NCBI GenBank assembly: GCA_028867135.1
Contig: JAGWGW010000006.1
Location: 1 to 60,577, forward strand
Source: Candidatus Micrarchaeota archaeon
Lineage (GTDB): Archaea > Micrarchaeota > Micrarchaeia > Micrarchaeales > CABMGC01
Length of the DNA stretch: 60,577 bases
Direction: 5' to 3'
This document shows, piece after piece, positions 1 through 40,114 of this stretch (within the stretch, counting starts at the first letter, position 1; each line of letters opens with the position of its first letter). A program made the translations under genes and the position numbers. Under the pieces are notes generated by a model, which worked only from the letters and a program-made list of their open reading frames with translations, was not told where the DNA came from and did not search any database.

Positions 1-476
1 ATGCAATGGACAACAAGACAAGGTTCTTGCTCGCCACGCAGATAACGAAAGTAAGAACGATAAAGGATGCGAGGGCTATCATACAGAAGGCAAAGCCATT
101 CCTCTCCCATAAGCCAAACACAATAGCGACGGATAAAGGGCAATTTTATAAGAGAGCGATAAGGAAAGAATACATTACCTTTGCACATAAATTTGTTTTC
201 AATAACAGGATGGGCGTAAATCATGCAACGTCAAAGATGGACAACCAGATAATAGAGAGGTATCATGGCACATTCAGGGAGAGGGATAAGGTTATTCGTG
301 GCTTCAAGAACGAAAGGGCAACAGAACAATACATAGACAATTGGAAAACCTATTACAACTTCGTAAGACCGCACACAAGCTTTAATGGTCTTACGCCATC
401 GGAGATGGCAGGGATAAGCATAGGTGCAGAGAGGAATAGATGGTTAACGTTATTGAAACTTAGTAGTAAACCTTGA
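1..476 (+). mobile_element. IS6-family-like DDE transposase, C-terminal portion (5' end truncated by window edge)
   Basis: ORF 6..476 is open to position 1. It shows DDE-transposase C-terminal motifs (TDKGQFY, NNRMG...ERYHGTFRER, YNFVRPHTSFNGLTPSE). Flanking DNA is AT-rich. Confidence 0.55.
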
Positions 477-1187
477 TTATACTCTATATTTTCTTAATAA
501 TTTTATAGAATGTTGAATAGCAGCATGCACGACGCCCAATTCAATCAATGAGTATAAAACTAAATCAATAAAGATGTACCAACTCGCAGTAAATGTATCA
601 TTAATTGCTCTTGAGTTTATCTTTGAATATTGTTCTATGTAGGATTTATACATGTAATTAGTAGTTTGGTTAGTGGTTGAATTAGTAGTATTAGTAATTG
701 AAACTTCGGCTATAAATCCATGTGCGCCTATGCCTGCAAGTGAATATGTTATGCTATCAAACAAATAATAAACTGGAATAAAGAAAATCGCTATAAGAAG
801 TGCTCCCCACATCATGTTTATTCGATATTTTGGAGAGAAACTTATGATATATTTTTGCAAGAATAATCTTAATTTGGGTATTGTCTGTATTAGGACAATT
901 GAATAAAAACCAAATAATATGCTACAGAATGTTAGTAAACCTTGTAAGAAAAATGGGTAAGTATCATCTGCTAAAGGAATTATATTGAGTATTTGAAGAA
1001 TGATATTTCTTTCAGTGCCGATTATCTGAGAATAAACAAAACCAAATATAATAACGAGAATATAGGCTAATCCTAATAATGTAGTGATTTTCCACTTTCT
1101 TGTACGCTCTCTTTTACTTAATTTGGGATCTTTCTTAAAAAATTCAGATATGGAACTGACCATAGTATCTGTCAAGGATTTTTTCAT
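477..1187 (-). CDS. hypothetical multi-pass membrane protein (AT-rich island)
   Basis: 236-aa ORF with several hydrophobic helices. Low GC. It abuts the IS remnant. Confidence 0.45.
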   Translation of the reverse strand: MKKSLTDTMVSSISEFFKKDPKLSKRERTRKWKITTLLGLAYILVIIFGFVYSQIIGTERNIILQILNIIPLADDTYPFFLQGLLTFCSILFGFYSIVLIQTIPKLRLFLQKYIISFSPKYRINMMWGALLIAIFFIPVYYLFDSITYSLAGIGAHGFIAEVSITNTTNSTTNQTTNYMYKSYIEQYSKINSRAINDTFTASWYIFIDLVLYSLIELGVVHAAIQHSIKLLRKYRV

Positions 1188-2930: not shown

Positions 2931-4493
2931 CTAGAGCTGCTTCTGCCCCTTGCCCAGCTGATAGCTCTCCGCGAGCTTCCTGTTCAGCGAGTTTATCAGC
3001 ATCCTCATCTTCTCCTCCTTCTGGCCCGATACCCTGAGATACACTTCGTCCTTGGTGCCTTCCGCAACAAGTATGTATATGTCTCCGTCCCTGAACCTCC
3101 CTGTCCTTCCCTTCCTCTGTATGTTCCTTATCTCATTAGGTATCGCTTCGTAAAACACGACCAGGTCAACGCTCGGTATGTCGAGGCCCTCCTCGCCTAT
3201 GGAGCTCGCCACCAGTATGTCAAATTTCCTGTTCCTGAAATCCTCTATCACCTGCTTCTGCTGCAGCTGCGTGACCCCCTCCTTCTTGCCGACGAACGGA
3301 ACGGAGCTGAAGCCGTTGTTGTTGAGGAATTCGACCAGCATCCTTATCGTAGAGCGGTACTGCGCGAACACTATGGCGCTCTTGCCCCTGTAATTCTTCA
3401 GCACGTCTATCAGCGCGAAAACCTTTCCATGCTCCTCGCTTCTCCTTACCGATTCCTCAGCCAGACTCTTCGCAGCCATGATGTTCCTGTTGTTTAGGAG
3501 GTACTCGACAGCGCGGCTCTTCTTCTCCCTGGCATGCAGCGAGTTCATGTAGCTGAGAAACGGGGATATGCCCTCAACAACAAGCAGGTCGTACGCATGC
3601 AGCAGGTTAAGCAGCTTCACATATCCGAATATGGCCCCGAACTTGTAGTTCCTGGCTTCTATCTTCTCTATCTCCCTTCCAAGCGCTATCAATCTTCCCT
3701 TCGGCATGTTCTGGAAGCTCTTGAAGTGCATCAGCCCCATGTGCCTGAGGCTGTCCATGCTGGCTTCGATCTCAGGCACGAGGAGCTTCGATATCTCCTT
3801 TATCCTATCGGTCTGCCTGACGTTGACAATGTGGACGTACTTCGGCATGATGTACTTTACCACATCGCCGTCTGTAGACACTCTCGCCTCGATGTGCCTT
3901 ATGTTGAGGGTTCCAACGAGCTCCTCTATCTTCTCCTTCTTGCTTCCGGGAGACGCCGTCAATCCGACAACAAGTATGTCCCTGACCGTGCATTCGTTCG
4001 CTATGTAAGTATATGCGTATTTCCCGACCGCCCTATGGCACTCGTCGAAGACAGCGACCCCGAACCCCTCAAGGCCGAGCATCGCGCTCTTCACGTCGTT
4101 CGCGACTGTCTGCGGAGTCGCCACTATGACCTTCGCGATGTTCGCCTCCCTAGCCTTCTTGCTTGTCGTTCCTGTGAGCAGCAGTATCTCCTCTTTCGGG
4201 ATCTTCAGCTGGTTCGCAATGGTATTGTAGTGCTGCTCGGAAAGCGGCTTAGTCGGGGCCATGAGCAGCGACCTCTTCCCATCCGCTATCGCCTTCGCTA
4301 TTGCAGCAACGGCTATGAAGGTCTTCCCAAGCCCTGTAGGCAGCACGACCAGCGTGTTGCCGTTCTGATGTATTGATCTTATTATGTTGTACTGGTATTC
4401 CCTGAATTCAGTGCCTTCGAGGTTCATCAGATTGGCGTAGTCACCAAGCAGCCGCCATCTCTCGTCAATAGCCATATAAACCAGTCTCAGCAC
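2931..4493 (-). CDS. hef: Hef/FANCM-like ATP-dependent helicase (helicase domain only, no nuclease)
   Basis: Motifs PTGLGKT, DECH, TASPG and RKGRTGR with superfamily-2 helicase layout. 520 aa, no ERCC4 domain. Confidence 0.65.
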   Translation of the reverse strand: MLRLVYMAIDERWRLLGDYANLMNLEGTEFREYQYNIIRSIHQNGNTLVVLPTGLGKTFIAVAAIAKAIADGKRSLLMAPTKPLSEQHYNTIANQLKIPKEEILLLTGTTSKKAREANIAKVIVATPQTVANDVKSAMLGLEGFGVAVFDECHRAVGKYAYTYIANECTVRDILVVGLTASPGSKKEKIEELVGTLNIRHIEARVSTDGDVVKYIMPKYVHIVNVRQTDRIKEISKLLVPEIEASMDSLRHMGLMHFKSFQNMPKGRLIALGREIEKIEARNYKFGAIFGYVKLLNLLHAYDLLVVEGISPFLSYMNSLHAREKKSRAVEYLLNNRNIMAAKSLAEESVRRSEEHGKVFALIDVLKNYRGKSAIVFAQYRSTIRMLVEFLNNNGFSSVPFVGKKEGVTQLQQKQVIEDFRNRKFDILVASSIGEEGLDIPSVDLVVFYEAIPNEIRNIQRKGRTGRFRDGDIYILVAEGTKDEVYLRVSGQKEEKMRMLINSLNRKLAESYQLGKGQKQL

Positions 4494-4538
4494 TACGATA
4501 TAGCCTTAAAAAGCTTTTAAGCAATACCTTGCTATCGT

Positions 4539-4610
4539 GCCGCAGTAGCTCAATGGGAGAGCGCCGCCCTGAAGAGGCGGATGTTGCTGGTTCAAATCCG
4601 GCCTGCGGCA
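4539..4610 (+). tRNA. tRNA-Phe (anticodon GAA)
   Basis: Cloverleaf folds by hand. Acceptor GCCGCAG/CTGCGGC, D-arm GCTC/GAGC, anticodon stem CCGCC/GGCGG with loop CTGAAGA, T-arm CTGGT-TTCAAAT-CCGGC. Discriminator A, no encoded CCA. Confidence 0.85.
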
Positions 4611-4667
4611 TAACCTCCTCACGAGGGAGTGCAGTCCAAATCCCCAAGGGCGACCTTTAAATAGGTC

Positions 4668-5217
4668 TTGGTCGTAACGGCCAGCATGACTTTGAAAGAA
4701 TCCGAATTGGGCAGGATTGATAGAGGCATAGAGAAATTCGTTTCTAGGCTCAAGAAGGAGAGTCCAACGAACTATATCCATGTCAAGGACTACATTGCCT
4801 TCCTTCAGGCTAACAACAAGCATACGCGCACCGTATACAGGCATGCTTTGCTCTATCTATCTTCTTCAGGTTCTACAACAAGGATGCAAAGGAAGCAACA
4901 AAAGAGGAGCTAGTACAAGCGATAGGCAGGATAAACCTTCTTCCAAACTACCGGGAATCCACAAAAGACAAGGTAAGGACCGTAACCAAACAGTTTTACA
5001 AGCATTTGCTAGGAGATGACGAATTCTACCCCCCCCGTCATTAGATGGCAAAAGGTCAAAGGCCATCCATAGAGGAGAAGGAAAACAGATAAATTCTGAC
5101 GATGTGCTTTGTCTTCGAGATTATGTAAGACGTACAATCCTAGCAGTTAATGATATAAACAAAGGCAAAAAGGAGCTAGCAAACATTTTAAACCGAAGAG
5201 GTTTCTATAACTTTTAA
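4668..5217 (+). pseudogene. tyrosine recombinase (integrase) remnant, frameshifted and fragmented
   Basis: Frame 1 encodes an integrase N-terminal-like segment (…YIHVKDYIAFLQANNKHTRTVYRHALLYL). Another frame continues with …AIGRINLLPNYRESTKDKVRTVTKQFYKHLLGDDEFY and then stops. Lies immediately 3' of tRNA-Phe. GC about 43%. Confidence 0.4.
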
Positions 5218-5244
5218 TAGACCATATCTGTTAGGCCCTAGGCA

Positions 5245-5685
5245 TTACTTCTGCTTCTTCTTAGCTAGAAAGCCACCAATCAAACCTCCTATTGGCGTTG
5301 CGATGAAGAAGAGCAGGTAGCCGATACCGAGTACTGACCTGATGGTATTTGCAAGCTGATATGCTGCCTGGGAAACCTGTGGTGAAGTGGTGCTCCCTGC
5401 TCCAGCAAGACCAATAACCGATGCAAGAATATACGGCACGAAGAGAATTATGATTAGCCCTATAACAAAACTAACAACCCCAGAAAGGAAGCCCACGCCA
5501 GCTCCCCCAACCGCCCCTCGCTTAGCCATATAGCCTGCTATGGCACCGCTGATTAGCAAGCCAAAGAAAACAATACCACCGATAAGTCCTCCAATTATGC
5601 CTCCCACGACTACTGCCTTCGCAATGCTTGGCTGCTTTGCAGAAGTTGTTTCAGGCATATATCCCAAATCTACTTGAATATGCAT
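5245..5685 (-). CDS. glycine-zipper membrane protein
   Basis: 146 aa with repeated GGxIGGLIGG motifs and four predicted TM helices. Confidence 0.45.
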   Translation of the reverse strand: MHIQVDLGYMPETTSAKQPSIAKAVVVGGIIGGLIGGIVFFGLLISGAIAGYMAKRGAVGGAGVGFLSGVVSFVIGLIIILFVPYILASVIGLAGAGSTTSPQVSQAAYQLANTIRSVLGIGYLLFFIATPIGGLIGGFLAKKKQK

Positions 5686-5761
5686 GTTTAAATAGCTGAG
5701 CTAAAGAATTGGAAGGTAGGACTTGAACTTTAGTTCTGATTGAGGCCTGTGGCATAGTACT

Positions 5762-6172
5762 TTATAAGTAAGGTATCAGGTCAGATGTTTTCCATACCTT
5801 TATCATCTTCTGCTTCTGAAAATGACTGTCATCGCTCCATATGCCATCATTTGCAATTGCAAGTCCTAGCGCTATGAATGGCGTGTCATCTGCATCTATC
5901 TTATCCATAATCTTTTTTGCCTCATTAAATTTGTACTTAAGTATGGAATCATCAACTACATACAGATTATTCAATATTAATGACAGCAGGCTATCAAATG
6001 CGGTTTCTGTTAAGTTAGTCCTTCTCAATAGTTCCTCCTTGTGCTCCTCGAGCTCCATTTTTGTAAAACTTGGTGTTAGGAGTATGAACTTATCAGAATA
6101 GATTATTCTCCTGCTTACCGAATCCTTGATGAGTGCTGCAACTATCCTATTGGTATTAGCTACTAGTATCAT
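5762..6172 (-). CDS. vapC: PIN-domain ribonuclease toxin VapC
   Basis: Acidic PIN-like residues in a 136-aa protein. Overlaps the upstream small RHH/AbrB-like gene by 17 nt. Confidence 0.6.
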   Translation of the reverse strand: MILVANTNRIVAALIKDSVSRRIIYSDKFILLTPSFTKMELEEHKEELLRRTNLTETAFDSLLSLILNNLYVVDDSILKYKFNEAKKIMDKIDADDTPFIALGLAIANDGIWSDDSHFQKQKMIKVWKTSDLIPYL

Positions 6173-6398
6173 TCTCGAGCCTCTTACGTATTCCTGCCTT
6201 GACTTTGTGCCCTATGGTCTCAGCATCTTTTTCCGTAAGTCGGCTATTCTTGAGCATCTTATCCACAAGGTCCAGCTCCAGCAGCTTTTTTTCAAAAGCA
6301 AGCCTGGCTATATCGCTCCATTTCAATTCCGTATGTCTTTTCATTTTCTCATACAATTCATCTGAAACTGATAGTGTTATATTCGTCACAGCTTTCAC
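6156..6398 (-). CDS. vapB: VapB-type antitoxin (small DNA-binding protein)
   Basis: 80-aa ORF immediately upstream of and overlapping vapC. Gene order is the classical type II TA arrangement. Confidence 0.5.
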   Translation of the reverse strand: MKAVTNITLSVSDELYEKMKRHTELKWSDIARLAFEKKLLELDLVDKMLKNSRLTEKDAETIGHKVKAGIRKRLENDTSS

Positions 6399-6641
6399 CT
6401 ATGTGTATTATGTGTAATCACATATTTAAACTTTTCCGTTGCCTACTACAGCACATAAGGGTACAAAAGCCATCATGCATAGTATTTCCAATCAAACAAT
6501 GTCTTTCTGAAGTGGCACCATAGGAATATGCCGGCTTGTGGCATTTTCCATTCAACAGGGGATCTGTTTAATCTATCCTGCGGTAAAACGCATTTTGCGG
6601 CATAAATTTAAAGCACGCCAAGCAATATACGATGTGATTTC

Positions 6642-7109
6642 TTGAAAAAAGTGGGGCTTGCAGATACGACGTTTTCCAGATTCGACTACGCGCCGGTGGT
6701 GCTCGGAGTGCTGTCAGAGAGCAACCCAGAGGTAGAAATTGTGCGCTACACTGTGCCTGGAATAAAGGATCTTCCTGTAGCATGCAAGAGGCTCTTTCAG
6801 GAAAAGTGTGACATAGTGATAGCATGCGGCATGGTGGGCAAGATGCCGATAGACAAGCAGTGCTCTCACGAAGCCAGTATCGGGCTCCAGTCAGTCCAGT
6901 TGTCTGAAGCGAAGCACATACTCGAGGTTTTTGTCCACATGGATGAGGCCAAGAACGATAAGGAGCTTGCAAGTATCTGCGAGGACAGGGCAAGAAAACA
7001 TGCCGAGAATGTCCTTATGCTCCTTTTCGACCAGAAGAAACTGCAAGGCAGGGCAGGCACGGGCAGAAGGCAGGGAAAGGAGGACGAAGGTCCCCTGAGG
7101 TTGGGTTAG
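6642..7109 (+). CDS. ribC: riboflavin synthase, archaeal type
   Basis: Matches archaeal RibC by eye (VGLADTTFSRFDYAPV…VPGIKDLPVACKRL…CDIVIACGMVGK…CSHEASIGL…VFVHMDEAKNDKELA…RARKHAEN). Likely TTG start. Confidence 0.75.
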   Translation: MKKVGLADTTFSRFDYAPVVLGVLSESNPEVEIVRYTVPGIKDLPVACKRLFQEKCDIVIACGMVGKMPIDKQCSHEASIGLQSVQLSEAKHILEVFVHMDEAKNDKELASICEDRARKHAENVLMLLFDQKKLQGRAGTGRRQGKEDEGPLRLG

Positions 7110-7523
7110 ATGGTTTCCATAGCAATAGTGCATTCGAAATTCAACCACGAGATAACTGATAAGATGCTTGAGCATGCGAGAGCGCACGCGAAGAAGCTCG
7201 GCATGAAGGTCGCAGTTGAGGTGACAGTGCCAGGCGCATTCGACATGCCAATAACCATAAAGAAGCTGCTTGAGAGAAAGGATATCGACGGAGTGGCAAC
7301 CATAGGAGCCGTAATCAAGGGCGAGACGAAGCATGACGAGCTTATAGCCAATCAGCTTTCCCATGCAATAATCCAGTTGTCGCTGCAATACGGCAAGCCT
7401 GTAGGTCTGGGAGTAATCGGGCCTGGCGTTACCTGGAAACAGGCAGAAGCAAGGGCAAAGCAGTATTCGGAGCAGAGCGTCGAAGCCGTATTGAAACTAC
7501 ACAAAGAGCTGAAGAAGATATAG
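7110..7523 (+). CDS. ribH: 6,7-dimethyl-8-ribityllumazine synthase
   Basis: IAIVHSKFNHEITDKML…VPGAFDMPITIKKL…IGAVIKGETKHDELI pattern in 137 aa. Directly follows ribC. Confidence 0.8.
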   Translation: MVSIAIVHSKFNHEITDKMLEHARAHAKKLGMKVAVEVTVPGAFDMPITIKKLLERKDIDGVATIGAVIKGETKHDELIANQLSHAIIQLSLQYGKPVGLGVIGPGVTWKQAEARAKQYSEQSVEAVLKLHKELKKI

Positions 7524-7660
7524 GCTTTACAGGGTGCGCTAGACGCTACCCAACTAGAACTGTCAGAATAACCGAAAAGCACGTAAGAGTACAAAAAGCG
7601 CCACAAAGCAGATTTGTCATCTTTTGGCGTCGTTTCGGAAGTAGTCCCGAGAAAACTGCT

Positions 7661-7690
7661 GGCCTGCGGCATAGTACTTTCCGTTCAACG
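7661..7690 (+). repeat. att-like repeat derived from tRNA-Phe 3' end (copy R4)
   Basis: GGCCTGCGGCATAGTACTTTCCGTTCAACG. The first 13 nt equal the tRNA-Phe 3' end. Related copies at 5744..5770, 6471..6501 and 6535..6561. Confidence 0.5.
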
Positions 7691-7726
7691 ACGCACGTCT
7701 AAAGATTGCAGAAAGAAGTTTAATAA

Positions 7727-8374
7727 GTGTTTAATGCTTATGATATCGTGGGTTATTATACGGCCAAAAGATCTAAAAAGAAAAGGCTTACGCATGTAAA
7801 ATATCCATTATTAGCATCCGCACTACTATTGGTCGGAATAGCTGCATTATTCATCTTCGCATCACATTTTTCCCAGAAAACCCAGCGACCATCAATGCAA
7901 CAGCTGCAATTAAATTTTGATTATCTTAGTCAACAGCACACTAACCTTTGCGCAGCGCCAAATTTCTTGGATTCAAAATCTAACGACAGTTTTCTCCAGG
8001 GATCATGCTGCTCCTTCATGAACTTCAGCAGCTATGTGGAGCAGGTGGAGGGGTTGACAAACTATTCAAGCATATCCCAGATACCCAAAGACCCTTACAA
8101 CATATCAGTTCCGCTTGCTAAGCAGCTGTTAGGCTACGACCAAAACATACAGCTGGATTCGAATCAGCAAATGATTTATGGTCAAGCTGTCAACATGTCC
8201 TCAGAGCACGGACCATGCTGCTGCAAATGCTGGAGATGGTACGTATTTGAAGGCCAGGCAAAGTACTTCATAGTGCACAATATGTTCAATGCAAGCCAGA
8301 TAGCCCACATCTGGGACCTGGAAGATGGCTGCGGAGGGCCTTCTGATGCCAAGGGCTATCAGCCACCTGCGTGA
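7727..8374 (+). CDS. secreted/membrane-anchored cysteine-rich protein
   Basis: N-terminal basic segment plus TM anchor. Many Cys (CCSF, CCCKCW) and N-x-S/T sequons. Confidence 0.45.
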   Translation: MFNAYDIVGYYTAKRSKKKRLTHVKYPLLASALLLVGIAALFIFASHFSQKTQRPSMQQLQLNFDYLSQQHTNLCAAPNFLDSKSNDSFLQGSCCSFMNFSSYVEQVEGLTNYSSISQIPKDPYNISVPLAKQLLGYDQNIQLDSNQQMIYGQAVNMSSEHGPCCCKCWRWYVFEGQAKYFIVHNMFNASQIAHIWDLEDGCGGPSDAKGYQPPA

Positions 8375-8437
8375 TTTTCAATGGTTCCGGGCTTTTATGA
8401 AACCTAAGGATTCAGAGCAATTTATATAAGCTATCTG

Positions 8438-9940
8438 TTGCATAATAGACACATGGACAAGGCACAAGTTTTCGGCATAATAGTTGTATTGGTAATATTG
8501 GCAGCGCTGGCCATCTTCTTGGCGAACCAGAATCCTGCGTCGCACAAGGGCCTTGGCCTGCTGTCAGTGCTGCTCACGGATCCTCCGCAGGTGCCGAACG
8601 GCACGCAGGCATTGGTTATAAGCTACTCATCGCTTGGGGTGCACACCGAAGGGGCTCAGGGCTCCGGATGGATCCAGTCTAACGCAAGCGGAACTGTCAA
8701 CCTCCTATCCCTTCTCAATCTCACCCAGACGATAGGCACCGTTTCAGTGCCGAACGGCACGCAGGTAAACCTGGTAAGATTCAGCGTCTCCTCCGCAAAG
8801 ATAACGATAAACAACATAACGTACAACGTCACGGTGCCCAGCGGAATGGTGCAGGCAAATGTCGAGGGCATGAACCATGTCAGCAGCAGCAGCGGCGTAC
8901 TGGTTTCGCTATCGCCCACAGTAGTTTCCATCCTGACATCAAACACCACAGTCTTCGTCCTTGTGCCATCGCTTCGCGCAGTAATAATCGCAAATGGCAC
9001 CAACCAGAGCACGGCACGTGTGGGCTTCAAGTCAAGGCTCCACGCAGAGGACAGAGACAGCCTGGAGCACACGGGCTCTAACATAACCGTAACCAACGCG
9101 TCATTGACGGTATCCGGGAACGTGACGGATCTTAGCGTCACAGTAAGGAACAACGGCAACCAGAGCGTGGCGCTGAAGCATGTGGCAATATTCGGGAACG
9201 TCTCAACCATGCTGAATTCAACGGCCATAGGGGACAATGCAGCAAGGGTAGAGGCCGAATTCGAGGACCAGCTAAGGAACAGCACCATATGTGCGAATAT
9301 CACGTCAAATTCAACGGTAAACGCATCTGCGTCTGCTAACAAGTCCGCAAACCTCAGTGTAGGCGCAAGGCCGATGTTCGATCTTCAAGGCAGCGGCCAA
9401 GGCAATGACGGTGCGAACGCATCAGCAAACCTGACAAGCAACATGAGCGGACGTGAAAACAGCGGCAATCAGAGCAAGCAGCAGGAATCGGACCATGTCA
9501 ACTTAAGCGCAAGCGACCGCATGAATGTCAATAATTCGGACTTCGGCGACATGGGCGAGCACCTGCAATCCAACTTGGGGCTTAGGATCAACGGGAGCGT
9601 ATGCACCGCTGCAGGCTTCGCAGAGTTCCAGGACAGGCTCAGGGCAAGGCTAGCAAACGCCACATCCGACTTTGCCCATGCCCAAGCGGACTTCAGGCTG
9701 GTCTCATTCCTGGTCGCGCAGAACGGAACCCTCGAGCTTCCCTACAACTTCGAGGACTTCAACGACACAGGATATTCGCTGCAGCCAAGCAGCTCGTTCA
9801 CATTCACCTTCAGCAACGTTATAGTGACCAGCGACGGCGGCCTTGTAATAAAACCGCTGCCTGGCAGCGCATACAGGATCAGGGTGGGCGGCGAGGAGGG
9901 CGCCTCAGCATCCACGAATCTCACTGCTACAGCAGGCTGA
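8438..9940 (+). CDS. large N-glycosylated surface protein (S-layer-like)
   Basis: N-terminal TM/signal anchor. More than 40 N-x-S/T sequons in 500 aa, with internal repeats (VPNGTQ…). Confidence 0.55.
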   Translation: MHNRHMDKAQVFGIIVVLVILAALAIFLANQNPASHKGLGLLSVLLTDPPQVPNGTQALVISYSSLGVHTEGAQGSGWIQSNASGTVNLLSLLNLTQTIGTVSVPNGTQVNLVRFSVSSAKITINNITYNVTVPSGMVQANVEGMNHVSSSSGVLVSLSPTVVSILTSNTTVFVLVPSLRAVIIANGTNQSTARVGFKSRLHAEDRDSLEHTGSNITVTNASLTVSGNVTDLSVTVRNNGNQSVALKHVAIFGNVSTMLNSTAIGDNAARVEAEFEDQLRNSTICANITSNSTVNASASANKSANLSVGARPMFDLQGSGQGNDGANASANLTSNMSGRENSGNQSKQQESDHVNLSASDRMNVNNSDFGDMGEHLQSNLGLRINGSVCTAAGFAEFQDRLRARLANATSDFAHAQADFRLVSFLVAQNGTLELPYNFEDFNDTGYSLQPSSSFTFTFSNVIVTSDGGLVIKPLPGSAYRIRVGGEEGASASTNLTATAG

Positions 9941-9981
9941 CCCTTTAAAGGACGTTATTTGCCGCGCTGCGCACGCCATTC

Positions 9982-10542
9982 CTACCTGTAGTGCACGGAC
10001 TCGTATCTTACATCGAGTTTTGCGGCTAACTGGGTCTTCTTCAGCAGCGAGAGCACGTCGCCAAACGCTCCTCCTGCGATGTAGAACTGCAGCTGATGCC
10101 CCGGCAGCGCAGCCCCCAGGTCGAGCAGCAGTACGGTATAGTTTACCGAAGGCCTGTTGGAGCCCGGCATGCCGCTTGCGTACGATATGCACCTGCTGAG
10201 CCTTACTGCTGTCACCTTATGGTAGGCATGCTTTATGCGTATGTCCATCTGCCCTGATGGCGACATCGCGCCAAGGCTTTTGCGGACAATGCCACATTGC
10301 GACACGTAATTCCTGAACATCTCCAGCCCCGCGCTGTCAAGGGGCTTCTCATCGAGCTGGGGCAGCAGCGCGCCCAGCACGAAGTTATCAGTAAGGATAA
10401 GCCTGTACGCTGTCGCGTCTGCGATTTTGCGGAACATCACATTGTTGGGGGTTGTTGCCGCAGGGCATATCTCGCCCACGACCTTCTCATCCCTGACGCT
10501 ATCGTAATAGTTTACCATGGATACGCTCTGCGCATTGGCCAT
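9982..10542 (-). CDS. hypothetical protein
   Basis: 186-aa ORF, divergent from thiE. No motif I can confidently assign. Confidence 0.35.
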   Translation of the reverse strand: MANAQSVSMVNYYDSVRDEKVVGEICPAATTPNNVMFRKIADATAYRLILTDNFVLGALLPQLDEKPLDSAGLEMFRNYVSQCGIVRKSLGAMSPSGQMDIRIKHAYHKVTAVRLSRCISYASGMPGSNRPSVNYTVLLLDLGAALPGHQLQFYIAGGAFGDVLSLLKKTQLAAKLDVRYESVHYR

Positions 10543-10720
10543 ACATCCATTTGCCTTTTCTCCTTTATAACGATGCCGCTTGATGTGGCCTGCGGTTCAG
10601 GCATGCCCGTTAGGCGCATTGAGACGCTGTACCTGCAGCGCTGCCGTATCGCTATCCCTTTTACCGAAACAAATCAGATGCTTCTAATATTCTCATTGCA
10701 GATTCCTCTTAGGTGGCATC

Positions 10721-11038
10721 ATGGTCCTGGTATGCCCCAAATGCGGGGCCGAGAACAGCGACGATACTGCAAAATGCAAGATATGCGGCAGCGCTATTGG
10801 AGATGCGGCCGTAGGCAAAAGGCCGACCCACTACAGGTCTGCCGTAGGATTCGTGCTTCTCCTGGCCGTAGTGGCCTTGGCGATACTTCTGTATCCTGTT
10901 ATAGCCTCAAAGCTGTCATCGCTTTACAAGAACATAGTTTCATCGACAACAACCGTTACCAGCATACCGACGACAACAGTCAACCAGTCGACTACCGTGC
11001 CGTGCATCATATGCATAGGCGACCACAGCGGCCATTGA
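10721..11038 (+). CDS. zinc-ribbon membrane protein
   Basis: CPKCG…CKICG zinc ribbon, then a TM helix and a Thr-rich tail. Preferred over the overlapping 10297..11052 ORF. Confidence 0.4.
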   Translation: MVLVCPKCGAENSDDTAKCKICGSAIGDAAVGKRPTHYRSAVGFVLLLAVVALAILLYPVIASKLSSLYKNIVSSTTTVTSIPTTTVNQSTTVPCIICIGDHSGH

Positions 11039-11089
11039 CGCACAAGATATAAAACTTGCATTCGCATATCTATCTCTGTCGGTCTTGAC

Positions 11090-11740
11090 ATGCACGCAGA
11101 AAAAAAGATACCCACAAAGCGAACGGTGCTTCCAAAGGGACTTTACGGAATAACGTCAAGGGATTTTGGAATGACCCACGTCCAGAGCGCCAGGGTGCTG
11201 CTTGGCGGCGGGGCCAAGTTAATCCAGTACAGGGAGAAGAAGGCAGGAACAGGAGCCATGATCGAAGAGGCAAGGGAGATCGGGCTTCTTTGCAAGGCCG
11301 AGAACGCCATTTTCATAGTGAATGACAGCGTAGAGGTTGCAATGGCTGTCGGGGCAGACGGGGTTCACGTGGGACATGAGGACGTGCCTGTCAAGGAAGC
11401 AAGGAGGTCGCTTCCCAACAAGATAATAGGCGCAAGCGCAGCCAGTGCTGAGGAGGCCGTGCGCGCAGAGCGAGACGGCGCAGACTACATAGGAGCTGCG
11501 GCAATCTTCCATTCCCTCAGAAGCAAGCCGGATGCAAGAGTGATAGGCCTCGAGGAGCTGAAAAGGATAAGGGATTCGGTCAAGATACCCGTATATGCTA
11601 TTGGTGGCATAAGGATGGAGCACCTCAAGACCCTCAAGCAATATGGAATTGACGGTTTTACCGTGATCTCAACGATACTAGCATCAGAGGATCCTGAGGC
11701 TGTTGCGAAGGAGTTCATCAACGGATGGCTGCGCGCCTGA
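11090..11740 (+). CDS. thiE: thiamine-phosphate synthase
   Basis: LYGITSRDFG…GADGVHVGHEDVP…IIGASAASAEEA…GADYIGAAAIFHS…IPVYAIGGI…GIDGFTVIS pattern. Confidence 0.75.
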   Translation: MHAEKKIPTKRTVLPKGLYGITSRDFGMTHVQSARVLLGGGAKLIQYREKKAGTGAMIEEAREIGLLCKAENAIFIVNDSVEVAMAVGADGVHVGHEDVPVKEARRSLPNKIIGASAASAEEAVRAERDGADYIGAAAIFHSLRSKPDARVIGLEELKRIRDSVKIPVYAIGGIRMEHLKTLKQYGIDGFTVISTILASEDPEAVAKEFINGWLRA

Positions 11741-37907: not shown

Positions 37908-38768
37908 TTACTCTATCTTCTTAAATAGAAGATAATAAACCCAGAATAGAATTAGATTGATTATTATTAGATATATACTTAGTTTAAAGTATATACGCAC
38001 GCTGGAATTTATCAAAACTGGTAAATTAACCACATACGAGTATAAACCCGTTGAATTAAGCCAAGCAGAACCAACTTTCATGTTTAATACATAGTTTTGA
38101 CCATTTATGATATTGGCATTTTGTTCCTGTTGCTGTGCTAATGTAATATATTGTGTCCAATTTGAATGGATTATAGTATTATTATCTGTTGTGAGGAAGG
38201 TATTAATTGCTCTATATATACCTTGATAAATGCCTGCTACTGACAATGTATGTAATATTCCGATAAAGAGCAGAATTAATGGTGTTATCATTAAAAAGAT
38301 TACCAAATATCTAAGCCAATTATATCCATTTGAAGAACGCATTTTCTTAATTTCATCCTTAAAAAGTTTCAGAAATTCAACAAATACAAGAGAGTATAAA
38401 CCCATCAAGGTTGCAGATATAGCCAAATAAGTTTCTAAAAATTGATTAAAATAAGTTGTTAGGTAAGGCAAAGCTAAAGATGTCAGATACTGTATATGGT
38501 TGGGTTCGCAAGAATTAAAATTAAGCGGAGCAGAACCTGTAAAGTTTGCAGAGCTGGTTACAATGCCATTCACAGCAATTGAATTAGGTAAGTAAATGGT
38601 AGAAAACTTGCAATTAGAGAATGTAATACCTGCATAGATATTAGAAAAAGCCTGTGTTGTCGAGTTGGTTGATAGAATATAATTAGACCATGATAGTAAT
38701 GTTATTGCAAGAATTATTACTAATCCGATAAATAGGTACAGCCATCCGTTTACAGCCATAGATGCCAT
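37908..38768 (-). CDS. hypothetical polytopic membrane protein in AT-rich island
   Basis: 286-aa ORF, GC about 30%. Segmental resemblance to the 477..1187 protein (FKKDxxKxxR…W…LxxIxxF). Confidence 0.45.
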   Translation of the reverse strand: MASMAVNGWLYLFIGLVIILAITLLSWSNYILSTNSTTQAFSNIYAGITFSNCKFSTIYLPNSIAVNGIVTSSANFTGSAPLNFNSCEPNHIQYLTSLALPYLTTYFNQFLETYLAISATLMGLYSLVFVEFLKLFKDEIKKMRSSNGYNWLRYLVIFLMITPLILLFIGILHTLSVAGIYQGIYRAINTFLTTDNNTIIHSNWTQYITLAQQQEQNANIINGQNYVLNMKVGSAWLNSTGLYSYVVNLPVLINSSVRIYFKLSIYLIIINLILFWVYYLLFKKIE

Positions 38769-38822
38769 ACTACATAAAAGCCTTTAAACTTAATCTATAA
38801 GTGCTTCAATAAACTCATCCAT

Positions 38823-39158
38823 CTATTCCTTCCGTTTCCTATGCTTATCCTCGGCCATCTCCGATGGCGTAAGACCATTAAAGCTTGTGTGTGGCCTTAC
38901 GAAGTGTAATAGGTCTGCGTTATTATTTTCCATAGTTATTCCTTTGTTTTGAAAATTTCCCCCAATTTCCATTCTCACATTATTTGAAGATATTATTGCC
39001 TTTTCACCTACCACAACCCTCGCACCATTGGAACCTACATTTTTCAGCGGTTCACCACATTTATCGCACCGTATAATTCCAGTCGAGTATACTGCAAAAG
39101 CTACACCATCATCATGTCCACATCTACTACAAACAGTCATATCTATTCCTCTTTCCAA
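38823..39158 (-). pseudogene. zinc-ribbon protein gene fused to an IS transposase 3'-end remnant
   Basis: N-terminus CSRCG…CDKCG. C-terminus …HFVRPHTSFNGLTPSEMA is encoded by a roughly 50-nt sequence (38846..38898) nearly identical to the reverse complement of 360..413. Confidence 0.45.
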
Positions 39159-39745: not shown

Positions 39746-39749
39746 ACAT

Positions 39750-39833
39750 GCCGGGTTCGCCTAGAGGTATGGCGGTGGATTGCTAATCCACTTGGTCGAA
39801 AGACCTTCACGAGTTCGATTCTCGTACCCGGCG
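39750..39833 (+). tRNA. tRNA-Ser (anticodon GCU)
   Basis: Acceptor GCCGGGT/ACCCGGC. Anticodon stem-loop GTGGA-TTGCTAA-TCCAC. Long variable arm. T-arm ACGAG-TTCGATT-CTCGT. Confidence 0.8.
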
Positions 39834-40114
39834 TTCATCCTATCCTTATCTTGCAAACCGACCTGTGGGAAGCGTTGAAGCGGAACTATACAAACTAACG
39901 AAGCGCGGTAAATCTCTATATTCACAGATACTAAAGAAACTTAAGAAGATCCGCATAATCCCGGTAAATGGATGCACGGCGCTTATCCTGGAGTTAAGGA
40001 AATCCACCTTATGCACGTCCATCTCGTGCTCATGTTCGGGATTGATGGGCAAGAGAAGGTGGTGTCCATAGCCAACTTTGAACACCATCCGGAATCGCAT
40101 GGTTATTAATTTGC

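What the first reader, a model, noticed from the sequence alone, without database searches (positions are those of the whole stretch)
4539..7692. tRNA-Phe integration scar: decayed integrase plus four tRNA-3'-end-derived repeats enclosing vapBC and ribC-ribH
Immediately 3' of tRNA-Phe lies a low-GC stretch encoding a frameshifted tyrosine-recombinase-like N-terminus. The tRNA 3' end GGCCTGCGGCA recurs as GGCCTG(T/C)GGCATAGTACTTT… at 5744 and 7661. Degenerate copies of the extended motif (…CATAGTATTTCCAATCAAAC…, …GGCATTTTCCATTCAACAG…) occur at 6471 and 6535. Repeats R1 and R4 are 20/21 identical, and both carry ATAGTACTTT beyond the tRNA match, which is absent after the real tRNA. That fits serial integration or excision at tRNA-Phe, with the original downstream flank retained at R4. 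A vapBC toxin-antitoxin pair and, unexpectedly, the housekeeping riboflavin genes ribC-ribH lie between repeats.
Basis: seen in the sequence. Interest (0 to 1): 0.6.

Follow-up and report, generated by a model that had tools for sequence, protein, structure and literature searches.

The report
Decayed integration scar at tRNA-Phe
Mobile elements inserted repeatedly at the end of a tRNA-Phe gene in a tiny DPANN archaeon, leaving a dead integrase stump, a toxin-antitoxin cassette and several copies of the tRNA end; the riboflavin genes caught between copies look like resident genes, so this is an ordinary kind of genome scar.

Summary
The 13-mer GGCCTGCGGCATA (the tRNA-Phe 3' end plus 2 nt) recurs at 7661 (13/13) and 5744 (12/13). 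R1 and R4 match 19/20. Chance expectation is about 5e-5.

The window is from a Micrarchaeota (DPANN) genome. Bases 4611-5743 are the stump of an integrase-bearing element. Its left arm is 86% identical to that of an element with an intact 397-aa integrase. The window copy keeps only integrase residues 1-139, with a frameshift and two stops.

R1 abuts a PIN/RHH toxin-antitoxin cassette that ends at the degenerate copy R3, 789 nt further on. Related genomes carry ParE toxin-antitoxin cassettes of 0.6-0.8 kb, bounded in the same way by tRNA-Phe-end repeats.

A new finding is that ribC-ribH are bracketed by a diverged ~110-nt direct repeat (6450-6557 and 7578-7690). It contains R2/R3 and R4.

ribCH have core-like composition and lie near tRNA-Phe in two relatives. 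They are therefore most likely resident genes, not cargo. How the repeat downstream of ribH arose is unresolved.

The motif is absent from the rest of the window and from 1.08 Mb of related loci. This is a new member of a known kind: tandem accretion of decayed elements at a tRNA gene.

The parts
4539..4610 (+). tRNA-Phe(GAA), intact; integration target
   Evidence: ARAGORN; Rfam RF00005 at 71.6 bits. A tRNA-Phe 3' end sits next to the helicase gene in about 48 related loci.
4600..4612 (+). attL core: last 11 nt of the tRNA plus TA (GGCCTGCGGCATA)
   Evidence: Direct-repeat family D4. Chance expectation 5e-5.
4611..4685 (+). Left (P') arm of the most recent element, with the conserved motif TCACGAGGGAG and a TATA-like box (CTTTAAATAG, 4655-4664) ahead of the integrase start
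   Evidence: Window 4586-4644 is 86% identical to L071 5-62, the tRNA end plus arm of an element with an intact integrase. Arm-to-arm alignment z 15. The same motif follows the target tRNA in L073 and L042. The TATA-like box was read from the sequence.
4686..5220 (+). Tyrosine-integrase pseudogene holding the N-terminal SAM-like domain only. It has a frameshift near 4845 and in-frame stops near 5042 and 5090. Homology to integrases ends between 5101 (tblastn) and about 5170 (stitched read). The catalytic domain is absent.
   Evidence: tblastn with P0121: residues 1-53 match 4686-4844 (55% identity) and residues 55-139 match 4847-5101 (62%), E 6e-38. A stitched reading matches L071 at 54% over 162 aa and the L004 integrase at E 1e-13. 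PF13495 is hit weakly. No C-terminal fragment exists elsewhere in the window. Sister assembly L069 has the same frameshifts with no indels.
5245..5685 (-). Small glycine-rich membrane protein (weak DUF5518 match); probably the only surviving cargo of the stump element
   Evidence: PF17647 E 3e-4, below the curated cut-off. GC3 0.43 against a core of 0.63. No homologue in related loci.
5744..5763 (+). R1: a displaced copy of the tRNA end (attR of the stump element, attL of the toxin-antitoxin cassette). GGCCTGTGGCATA plus GTACTTT.
   Evidence: 12/13 to the tRNA end and 19/20 to R4. The PIN stop codon overlaps its last 2 nt. The contig of sister MAG GCA_028867445.1 ends at 5750, inside R1.
5762..6172 (-). 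PIN-domain toxin (VapC-like)
   Evidence: PF10130 PIN_2, E 3e-23. GC 0.37, GC3 0.40. In L014 a homologous PIN fragment (57% identity) abuts the tRNA-Phe end.
6156..6398 (-). RHH antitoxin (VapB-like); overlaps the toxin gene by 17 nt
   Evidence: Precomputed PF26688 RHH_12 on the identical protein. ORF geometry.
6399..6445 (-). Promoter and operator of the toxin-antitoxin operon. A TATA-like box lies at 6424-6432 on the - strand. An inverted repeat TATGTG-TAAT-CACATA lies at 6409-6424.
   Evidence: Read from the sequence. The homologous promoter of the L062 vapBC matches window 6406-6434 at 83%.
6450..6557 (+). Repeat C: a diverged copy of repeat D. It contains R2 (6477-6497, GCATAGTATTTCCAATCAAAC) and R3 (6533-6556, GGCTTGTGGCATTTTCCATTCAAC).
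   Evidence: 59/111 identities on the +1128 diagonal, against a mean of 27.8 (sd 4.6) and a next-best of 48. Gapped score 30.5, z about 15. R2 against R4, z 5.4.
6577..6604 (+). Further core-like fragments (CCTGCGGTA at 6577-6585 and TGCGGCATA at 6596-6604) running into the ribC TATA box
   Evidence: One of only four TGYGGCATA sites in the window. Not individually significant.
6642..7523 (+). ribC (6642-7109, archaeal riboflavin synthase) and ribH (7110-7523, lumazine synthase); resident genes trapped between repeat copies
   Evidence: TIGR01506 scores 181 bits (cut-off 100.6) and TIGR00114 scores 135.5 bits (cut-off 84.6). Composition is core-like. Syntenic with tRNA-Phe in L003 and L021.
7578..7690 (+). 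Repeat D, containing R4 (7661-7689, GGCCTGCGGCATAGTACTTTCCGTTCAAC), the best-preserved copy of the site
   Evidence: 13/13 to the tRNA end. Homologous to repeat C. No RNA family or structure signal.

Best explanation
The locus is a fixed, decayed tandem array of integrated-element remnants at the 3' end of tRNA-Phe(GAA) in a Micrarchaeota genome.

Steps that are shown:
- The latest arrival was an element of the family carrying integrase P0121. It recombined with the last ~11-13 nt of the tRNA. This put its own left arm and integrase gene directly after the tRNA (4611 onward) and pushed the earlier tRNA-end copy to 5744 (R1).
- That element has since been cut down from more than 16 kb to 1.1 kb. 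Its integrase is reduced to a frameshifted N-terminal fragment without the catalytic domain.
- R1 directly abuts an older PIN/RHH toxin-antitoxin cassette of foreign composition, which ends at the degenerate site copy R3.
- This cassette has no integrase and is flanked by att copies. It has the same size and layout as the ParE cassettes flanked by tRNA-Phe-end repeats in related genomes.

Steps that are inferred:
- Toxin-antitoxin modules outlast the rest of decaying elements because losing them is harmful to the cell.
- Successive elements keep integrating at the regenerated tRNA end, which is accretion.
- ribC-ribH are resident genes that have long lain just downstream of tRNA-Phe.
- ribC-ribH became bracketed by two diverged copies of a ~110-nt junction (arm plus core plus flank). 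This happened either by duplication of a 1128-bp unit followed by loss, or by att-mediated excision and re-insertion of a circle.

With no functional integrase in the locus, the array cannot move by itself.
For: - **Repeats.** The repeats are far beyond chance and confined to this locus.
- **Integrase stump.** tblastn to P0121 gives E 6e-38 with a frameshift and stops. The attL junction and arm are 86% identical to L071, which carries the intact gene. No catalytic-domain fragment exists in the window. The same lesions occur in an independent assembly.
- **Foreign composition.** The integrase fragment, membrane gene, PIN and RHH have GC3 of 0.40-0.47 against a core of 0.63 +/- 0.12.
- **Parallel cassettes in relatives.** Direct repeats of the tRNA-Phe end bound DUF7557-ParE cassettes: 26/28 nt in L062, 15/17 in L003 and 12/13 in L011, at +612 to +816 nt. 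These cassettes are homologous between lineages.
- **Earlier position of the R1 flank.** L014 has the tRNA-Phe end abutting a PIN fragment, as R1 abuts PIN here.
- **ribCH as residents.** Composition is core-like. They lie next to tRNA-Phe in L003 and L021, and ribK/HAD lie near it in L021, L012 and L038. RibC/RibH identities (88/82% to L003, 75/69% to L021) parallel the helicase (85%, 60%).
- **Precedent.** Short archaeal att sites of 8-14 bp are documented (PMC8371274). Accretion with integrase-less cis-mobilizable elements (CIMEs) is documented in bacteria (PMC5704250).
Against: - R4, downstream of ribH, is the best-preserved copy (13/13). Under a 'ribCH resident' model the outermost attR should lie upstream of ribC.
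- The origin of repeat D is inferred, not shown.
- R3 is a poor core copy (10/13 with a 5-nt deletion), so pairing R1 with R3 as the cassette ends is plausible but not proven.
- No empty site, excised form or attR/right arm of an intact relative was recovered.
- orf8438 homologues sit directly beside the helicase/tRNA-Phe in several relatives. This fits an ancestral flank that starts after R4.
Confidence: 0.6

Rival explanations
1. Everything from 4611 to 7660, ribC-ribH included, is imported island DNA built by serial integrations. R4 is the outermost attR followed by the original chromosomal flank. Repeats C and D are internal junctions (right arm of one element, core, left arm of the next) between related elements in a tandem array.
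For: - R4 matches the tRNA end exactly, and R1 matches R4 19/20.
- C and D share about 83 nt to the left of the core, as expected for right arms of related elements.
- orf8438-like genes directly neighbour the helicase/tRNA-Phe in L039, L065 and L028.
- The right flanks of R3 and R4 faintly resemble the family's left-arm motif TCACGAGG (z 2.2).
Against: - ribCH composition is core-like.
- ribCH are linked to tRNA-Phe in L003 and L021, and ribK/HAD in L021, L012 and L038. No flanking att copies are detectable around ribCH in L003 or L021.
- ribCH divergence equals that of core neighbours.
- The arm resemblance is not significant.
- The apparent D-like sequence downstream of ribH in L003 scores no better than other places in that locus.
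Confidence: 0.22
2. An active cassette-capture platform anchored on the tRNA. Single-operon modules (membrane gene, vapBC, ribCH) are each bounded by copies of one recombination site. Integrases of incoming elements shuffle them in trans, which would be integron-like or CIME-like mobilisation in an archaeon.
For: - Each module is bounded by a site copy.
- Toxin-antitoxin cassettes flanked by att copies recur at the same tRNA in other lineages.
- Cassette content differs between species at a fixed site: ParE in L003, L011, L021 and L062, and PIN here and in L014.
- Sister-MAG contigs break at or near R1 and inside PIN.
Against: - Three assemblies of the species have identical structure with no indels or rearrangement.
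- R2 and R3 are badly decayed.
- There is no functional integrase in the locus.
- The repeats are direct and have no hairpin signal.
- The ParE cassettes look vertically inherited, flank included.
- No circular or empty forms were found.
Confidence: 0.08
3. The repeated motif is a regulatory sequence (promoter element, terminator or transcription-factor site) or a small RNA gene. Its resemblance to the tRNA end is incidental.
For: - Copies lie in intergenic regions upstream of promoters for ribC, orf7748 and the membrane gene.
- One terminator-like hairpin overlaps R3.
Against: - There are no copies elsewhere in 60.6 kb or in 1.08 Mb of related loci.
- There is no Rfam hit, and folding is no better than shuffles (z about 0).
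- Terminator-like sites are fewer than in shuffles.
- An exact 13-nt match to the adjacent tRNA end has a chance expectation of 5e-5.
Confidence: 0.03

Closest known systems
Classical (non-suicidal, pNOB8/XerA-like) archaeal tyrosine integrases and their tRNA-integrated elements (review PMC8371274)
   Same: - Integration is at the 3' end of a tRNA gene, and the tRNA is regenerated.
- The integrase gene lies next to attL and reads away from it.
- Direct repeats of the tRNA end mark the ends.
- A short core of 11-13 nt is within the documented range, for example 13-14 nt for SNJ2.
   Different: - Only the N-terminal third of the integrase survives.
- The element is reduced to 1.1 kb.
- The host is a DPANN Micrarchaeon. 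None of the few papers returned by one literature search described such scars in this group.
Tandem accretion of genomic islands and cis-mobilizable elements (CIMEs) in bacteria, for example ICESt1/ICESt3 and tRNA-Lys islands of Streptococcus (PMC5704250)
   Same: - Decayed elements keep attL and attR but have lost the integrase.
- A new element integrates at the att site that carries the gene end, giving a tandem array with internal att copies.
- Gene capture has been described in such arrays.
   Different: - This is an archaeal host with no conjugation genes.
- The units are tiny, one operon each.
- Mobilisation has not been shown here.
- One unit appears to consist of resident housekeeping genes.
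Suicidal (SSV1-type) archaeal integrases that split into int(N) and int(C) on integration
   Same: An N-terminal integrase fragment lies beside a tRNA-derived att site.
   Different: - The att core lies outside the ORF. The gene starts 75 nt after the tRNA and reads away from it.
- Intact relatives (L071, L073, L004) keep a whole gene next to the tRNA.
- No int(C) fragment exists in the window.
- The loss is by frameshift and deletion, not by partition.
Chromosomal integrons with toxin-antitoxin cassettes
   Same: An array of short single-operon units separated by copies of a recombination site, next to a tyrosine-recombinase gene. Toxin-antitoxin cassettes are present.
   Different: - The sites are direct repeats of a tRNA end, not imperfect-palindrome attC sites.
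- There is no IntI-type integrase. P0121 scores 32 bits against a cut-off of 265 for integron integrase.
- The cassettes carry their own promoters.

Membership tests
tRNA-integrated element with a classical tyrosine integrase | Tyrosine-recombinase gene adjacent to the att site | tested here: met
   The N-terminal domain is homologous to P0121 (E 6e-38) and to the L004 integrase, which carries PF00589. P0121 hits XerA/Xer-type models, all below the cut-offs.
tRNA-integrated element with a classical tyrosine integrase | Intact catalytic domain (R..HxxR..Y), meaning a functional element | tested here: not met
   Homology stops at P0121 residue 139 by tblastn and about residue 162 in the stitched read, out of 397. 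There is a frameshift and two in-frame stops. No C-terminal fragment exists in the window. It is a remnant, not a functional member.
tRNA-integrated element with a classical tyrosine integrase | Direct repeats of the tRNA 3' end bounding DNA of foreign composition | tested here: met
   Cores at 4600, 5744 and 7661. GC3 of 0.40-0.47 between 4611 and 6450, against a core of 0.63.
tRNA-integrated element with a classical tyrosine integrase | Empty site or excised form in relatives or in the population | tested here: inconclusive
   The metagenome scan for the site found only an unrelated hit. Relatives have different content after tRNA-Phe, and no clean empty site matches R4.
Suicidal (SSV-type) integrase | att core inside the integrase ORF, with int(N) and int(C) at opposite ends of the element | tested here: not met
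   The ORF starts 75 nt after the core and reads away from it. There is no int(C). Relatives have intact genes beside the tRNA.
Type II toxin-antitoxin, VapBC-like | PIN-domain toxin preceded by a small overlapping DNA-binding antitoxin gene | tested here: met
   PF10130, E 3e-23. PF26688 RHH_12 on the identical 80-aa protein. The genes overlap by 17 nt. A palindromic operator lies at the promoter (read from sequence). Toxicity and neutralisation are not testable here.
Cis-mobilizable element (CIME) | attL and attR retained, integrase and transfer genes lost | tested here: inconclusive
   R1 is a good copy (12/13). R3 is degenerate (10/13 plus a 5-nt deletion). There is no integrase between them.
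Cis-mobilizable element (CIME) | Mobilisation together with, or by, an incoming element | not testable with these tools
   This needs read-level junction data or experiments. Three assemblies show no variation.
Archaeal riboflavin synthase and lumazine synthase | Score above the curated equivalog cut-off | tested here: met
   TIGR01506 scores 181 against a cut-off of 100.6. TIGR00114 scores 135.5 against a cut-off of 84.6.
Integron | IntI-type integrase and attC sites with imperfect inverted repeats | tested here: not met
   The integron-integrase models score far below cut-off. The repeats are direct, and folding is no better than shuffles.

The most novel reading that the evidence does not exclude
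tRNA-Phe in Micrarchaeota may be a long-lived cassette-exchange site. Under this reading, integrase-less single-operon units bounded by copies of the tRNA end are swapped or captured in trans by integrases of incoming elements. The units seen are ParE or PIN toxin-antitoxin modules and, in this species, even the housekeeping ribC-ribH pair. This would be an archaeal counterpart of bacterial CIME accretion and a route for moving metabolic genes among genome-reduced DPANN archaea.
Probability: 0.12. Interest if true: 0.55.

Novelty: new member of a known kind. Interest (0 to 1): 0.3.

Why it matters
It documents, for a DPANN archaeon, the familiar life cycle of tRNA-targeting elements: integration, decay to a toxin-antitoxin-only stump, then re-use of the site. 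It also links the stump to a family with intact integrases that share a conserved arm motif (TCACGAGG).

For annotation, it shows three things. The integrase is dead. The vapBC pair is a relic of mobile DNA. The riboflavin genes should not be counted as horizontally acquired just because they sit between repeats.

The recurrence of toxin-antitoxin cassettes flanked by att copies at the same tRNA across Micrarchaeota lineages is a modest but reusable marker for island turnover in these small genomes.

Tried and rejected
- **RNA gene or structure.** Rfam found only the two tRNAs at gathering threshold. A permissive scan of 4400-8400 found nothing credible. Folding of repeats C and D on both strands gave z about 0. 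The RNA and riboswitch reading was rejected.
- **Promoter and terminator scan.** Results were at or below shuffle level.
- **Tandem repeats.** TRF found no array in the region, so the ~60-nt periodicity of core fragments in 6474-6604 is not supported.
- **Metagenome scan.** GGCCTGYGGCATAGTAYTTT returned one unrelated hit. No strain variants or empty sites were obtained.
- **Viral collection.** The arm motif and P0121 found nothing in the viral contig collection.
- **Word-index search.** The protein search with the stitched integrase found nothing. The exhaustive HMMER search was needed.
- **Right end of an intact relative.** No attR was found within about 16 kb (L071 plus L072) or within 8.7 kb (L073). 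The idea that the left parts of C and D are element right arms therefore could not be tested.
- **Conservation of D in L003.** An apparent match downstream of ribH (z 4.3) is no better than other sites in that locus. It is treated as inconclusive.
- **Right flanks against the left-arm motif.** Similarity of the R3/R4 right flanks to the family's left arm is not significant (z 2.2 at best).
- **Extended tRNA similarity.** Similarity of the tRNA to C or D beyond the core is not significant.
- **Technical failures.** A Monte-Carlo simulation timed out and was replaced by an analytic estimate.

Full report
**What the window is**

The helicase gene next to the tRNA has its best relatives in Micrarchaeota MAGs. 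The closest is 85% identical (L003, isolate REEA68).

Two NCBI assemblies of the same species cover parts of the locus at 99.6-99.8% identity without indels. GCA_028867475.1 is seen as L069 and L001. GCA_028867445.1 is seen as L002. All features described below, including the integrase frameshifts, therefore reproduce across independent assemblies.

**Check of the observation**

tRNA-Phe(GAA) is at 4539-4610. Its last 11 nt plus the next two (GGCCTGCGGCATA, 4600-4612) recur exactly at 7661-7673 and with one mismatch at 5744-5756. R1 (5744-5763) and R4 (7661-7680) match 19/20.

| Event | Chance expectation |
|---|---|
| Exact 13-mer within 3.1 kb, same strand | 5e-5 |
| Two copies with at most one mismatch | 2e-6 |
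| Any 19/20 pair within 4 kb | 5e-4 |

The 9-mer TGYGGCATA occurs four times in 60.6 kb. All four are on the + strand between 4604 and 7673. The extended motif has no other copy in the window. It is also absent from 1.08 Mb of related loci.

Region 6450-6557 (repeat C) is a diverged copy of 7578-7690 (repeat D).

- On the +1128 diagonal, 59 of 111 positions match. The mean elsewhere in the window is 27.8 +/- 4.6 and the next best is 48.
- The gapped score is 30.5 against 10.2 +/- 1.3 for shuffles.
- R3 (6533-6556) aligns with R4. R2 (6477-6497) is a further partial copy of R4 (z 5.4).

Thus ribC-ribH are bracketed by a ~110-nt direct repeat, and each copy carries a copy of the site.

**The integrase stump (4611-5743)**

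An exhaustive profile search with the best-conserved frame found P0121, an intact 397-aa tyrosine recombinase. It carries PF00589. Its NCBIfam hits are to XerA and Xer-type models, all below cut-off.

- P0121 residues 1-53 match window 4686-4844 in one frame (55% identity).
- Residues 55-139 match 4847-5101 in another frame (62% identity) with two in-frame stops. Combined E is 6e-38.
- A stitched reading carries homology to about residue 162.
- The catalytic domain is missing, and no fragment of it lies elsewhere in the window.

The contig carrying P0121 (L071) starts with a tRNA 3' end (GGTTCAAATCCTGCTTGCGGCA) followed by TAAC...TTCACGAGGGAGGCAGTCTAAATCC. Window 4586-4644 is 86% identical to this. 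The arm alignment has z 15.

A second family member, P0129 in L073, sits after an intron-containing tRNA with a CAU anticodon. L042 has an integrase fragment after tRNA-Gly. Both have the same arm motif. The intact L004 integrase also sits after tRNA-Gly but lacks a clear copy of the motif.

So 4611 onward is the left arm and integrase gene of a classical element (one that does not split its own gene) which recombined with the tRNA end. The intact relative is longer than 16 kb with no attR in view. The window element has therefore been cut down to 1.1 kb. It keeps one small membrane-protein gene (5245-5685, GC3 0.43). R1 is its attR.

**The toxin-antitoxin cassette (5762 to about 6450)**

The PIN_2 toxin (E 3e-23) and RHH antitoxin overlap by 17 nt and have the lowest GC in the region (0.37 and 0.41). 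The PIN stop codon overlaps the last two bases of R1. The operon's promoter and operator end about five bases before repeat C. The spacing from R1 to R3 is 789 nt.

Two comparisons place this cassette in context.

- **L014.** The helicase there is 61% identical. An intron-containing tRNA-Phe that ARAGORN misses is followed after 4 nt by the stop codon of a C-terminal PIN fragment. That fragment is 57% identical to the window's PIN and lies in the same orientation. The R1|PIN junction was therefore very likely once the tRNA|PIN junction, before the integrase element inserted.
- **ParE cassettes.** Four other lineages (L003, L011, L021, L062) carry a DUF7557-ParE pair in the same position. In three of them it is bounded by a direct repeat of the tRNA-Phe end, as the table shows.

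| Locus | Repeat identity | Distance downstream of tRNA end |
|---|---|---|
| L062 | 26/28 | +612 to +639 |
| L003 | 15/17 | +697 to +713 |
| L011 | 12/13 | +804 to +816 |

These cassettes are homologous to one another, including the attR region (z 10-19). Integrase-less toxin-antitoxin units flanked by tRNA-Phe-end repeats are thus a recurrent, long-lived feature of this group.

The usual explanation is inferred here from established knowledge of addiction modules. It holds that the toxin-antitoxin pair is the last part of a decaying element to be lost. The bacterial literature calls such att-flanked, integrase-less relics cis-mobilizable elements (CIMEs). It describes tandem accretion when a new element integrates at the att site that carries the gene end (PMC5704250). 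Short archaeal att cores of 8-14 bp are documented (PMC8371274).

**ribC-ribH**

Both pass curated equivalog cut-offs. TIGR01506 scores 181 against 100.6, and TIGR00114 scores 135.5 against 84.6.

| Gene or set | GC | GC3 |
|---|---|---|
| ribC | 0.52 | 0.63 |
| ribH | 0.50 | 0.59 |
| Window genes, mean +/- sd | 0.51 +/- 0.05 | 0.63 +/- 0.12 |

- In L003, ribC-ribH lie 2 kb downstream of tRNA-Phe, after the ParE cassette and two other genes.
- In L021 they lie 1.3 kb downstream in inverted orientation, with a riboflavin kinase and a HAD phosphatase.
- ribK or HAD genes also lie near tRNA-Phe in L012 and L038.
- RibC/RibH identities (88/82% to L003, 75/69% to L021) track the helicase (85%, 60%) and the next conserved neighbours (87%, 73%).

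I therefore read ribCH as resident genes in an old linkage with tRNA-Phe, not as cargo.

**What remains unexplained**

The open question is why a second, better-preserved copy of the junction (repeat D with R4) lies downstream of ribH.

Two mechanisms would give the observed topology. One is duplication of a 1128-bp unit followed by loss of the second ribCH copy. The other is att-mediated or homologous excision and re-insertion of a circle. I could not discriminate between them.

The rival reading is that R4 is the outermost attR and that ribCH came in with an ancient element. The following points keep it alive:

- R4 matches the tRNA end exactly.
- C and D share about 83 nt to the left of the core.
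- orf8438 homologues lie beside the helicase in several relatives.

I give this rival 0.22.

R1 and R3 share the T variant (TGTGGCAT). The tRNA, R4 and the fragment at 6596 share the C variant. This fits R1 and R3 as a pair but proves nothing.

**Other readings rejected**

- There is no RNA family or structure signal.
- There is no promoter or terminator enrichment.
- There is no tandem array.
- It is not a suicidal integrase. The geometry is wrong and there is no int(C) fragment.
- It is not an integron.

**Verdict**

This is a real and well-defined but ordinary kind of feature: a fixed, decayed accretion scar at a tRNA gene. It is new only in its host group and in the detail that resident riboflavin genes are bracketed by copies of the junction. 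Interest is 0.3.

Noticed in passing
L062 9189-9828; L003 9153-9866; L011 8083-8899: DUF7557-ParE toxin-antitoxin cassettes directly after tRNA-Phe are bounded by direct repeats of the tRNA 3' end: 26/28, 15/17 and 12/13 nt. The cassettes are homologous across lineages whose helicases are only about 60% identical to the window's.
   Followed up: yes
L014 9828-9960 and many other related loci: ARAGORN misses intron-containing tRNA-Phe genes. A simple pattern for the 3' half finds a tRNA-Phe end beside the helicase in about 48 loci, against about 19 called by ARAGORN.
   Followed up: partly
window 1-476 and 38795-38914: The window starts inside a truncated IS6/IS240-type transposase gene (DDE_Tnp_IS240, rve_3). 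An 86% identical 120-nt piece of the same IS region lies at 38795-38914, just upstream of tRNA-Ser.
   Followed up: partly
window 477-1187 (-) and 37908-38768 (-): Two ORFs with no family match have very low GC (0.29 and 0.31, GC3 about 0.25). One is beside the IS fragment and the other is upstream of tRNA-Ser(GCU) at 39749-39834. They may mark further foreign islands.
   Followed up: no
window 5750 and 5904-5940: Contigs of both sister MAGs break here. GCA_028867445.1 ends at 5750, exactly at the T/C variant position inside R1. GCA_028867475.1 has two contigs ending at 5904 and 5940, inside the PIN gene. This may reflect population heterogeneity or PIN paralogues.
   Followed up: partly
window 4637-4712: Five of the 12 SNPs between the window and L069 over 5.9 kb fall in this 76-nt stretch, which covers the element arm and the start of the integrase pseudogene.
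   Followed up: no
L071 1-11297 and L072 1-6603: The element with the intact integrase P0121 is longer than 16 kb. It carries a D12-class methyltransferase, a DnaJ-domain protein and an RVT_1 reverse transcriptase (L072 2079-3323). Its nature (virus, plasmid or other) is unknown.
   Followed up: partly
L038 about 3590-3665 (- strand): Downstream of its tRNA-Phe, L038 has a second CTGCGGCA about 30 nt on and a GATTCAAATCCGCACA fragment. This looks like another pile-up of tRNA-end remnants.
   Followed up: no
window 7727-8374: The gene after R4 probably starts at GTG 7748, with a TTTAATAA box at 7713-7720. That start gives a basic N-terminus plus a membrane anchor. NCBI calls a shorter 135-aa product from 7967. 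It has no family match.
   Followed up: no
window 7524-11090 versus L003: Relative to L003 the window has about 3.5 kb extra between ribH and the conserved HhH-GPD gene (orf7748, orf8438, a 186-aa ORF and a zinc-ribbon ORF). Its thiE-like gene is only 36% identical and in the opposite orientation. This is a second variable segment, starting right at R4.
   Followed up: partly
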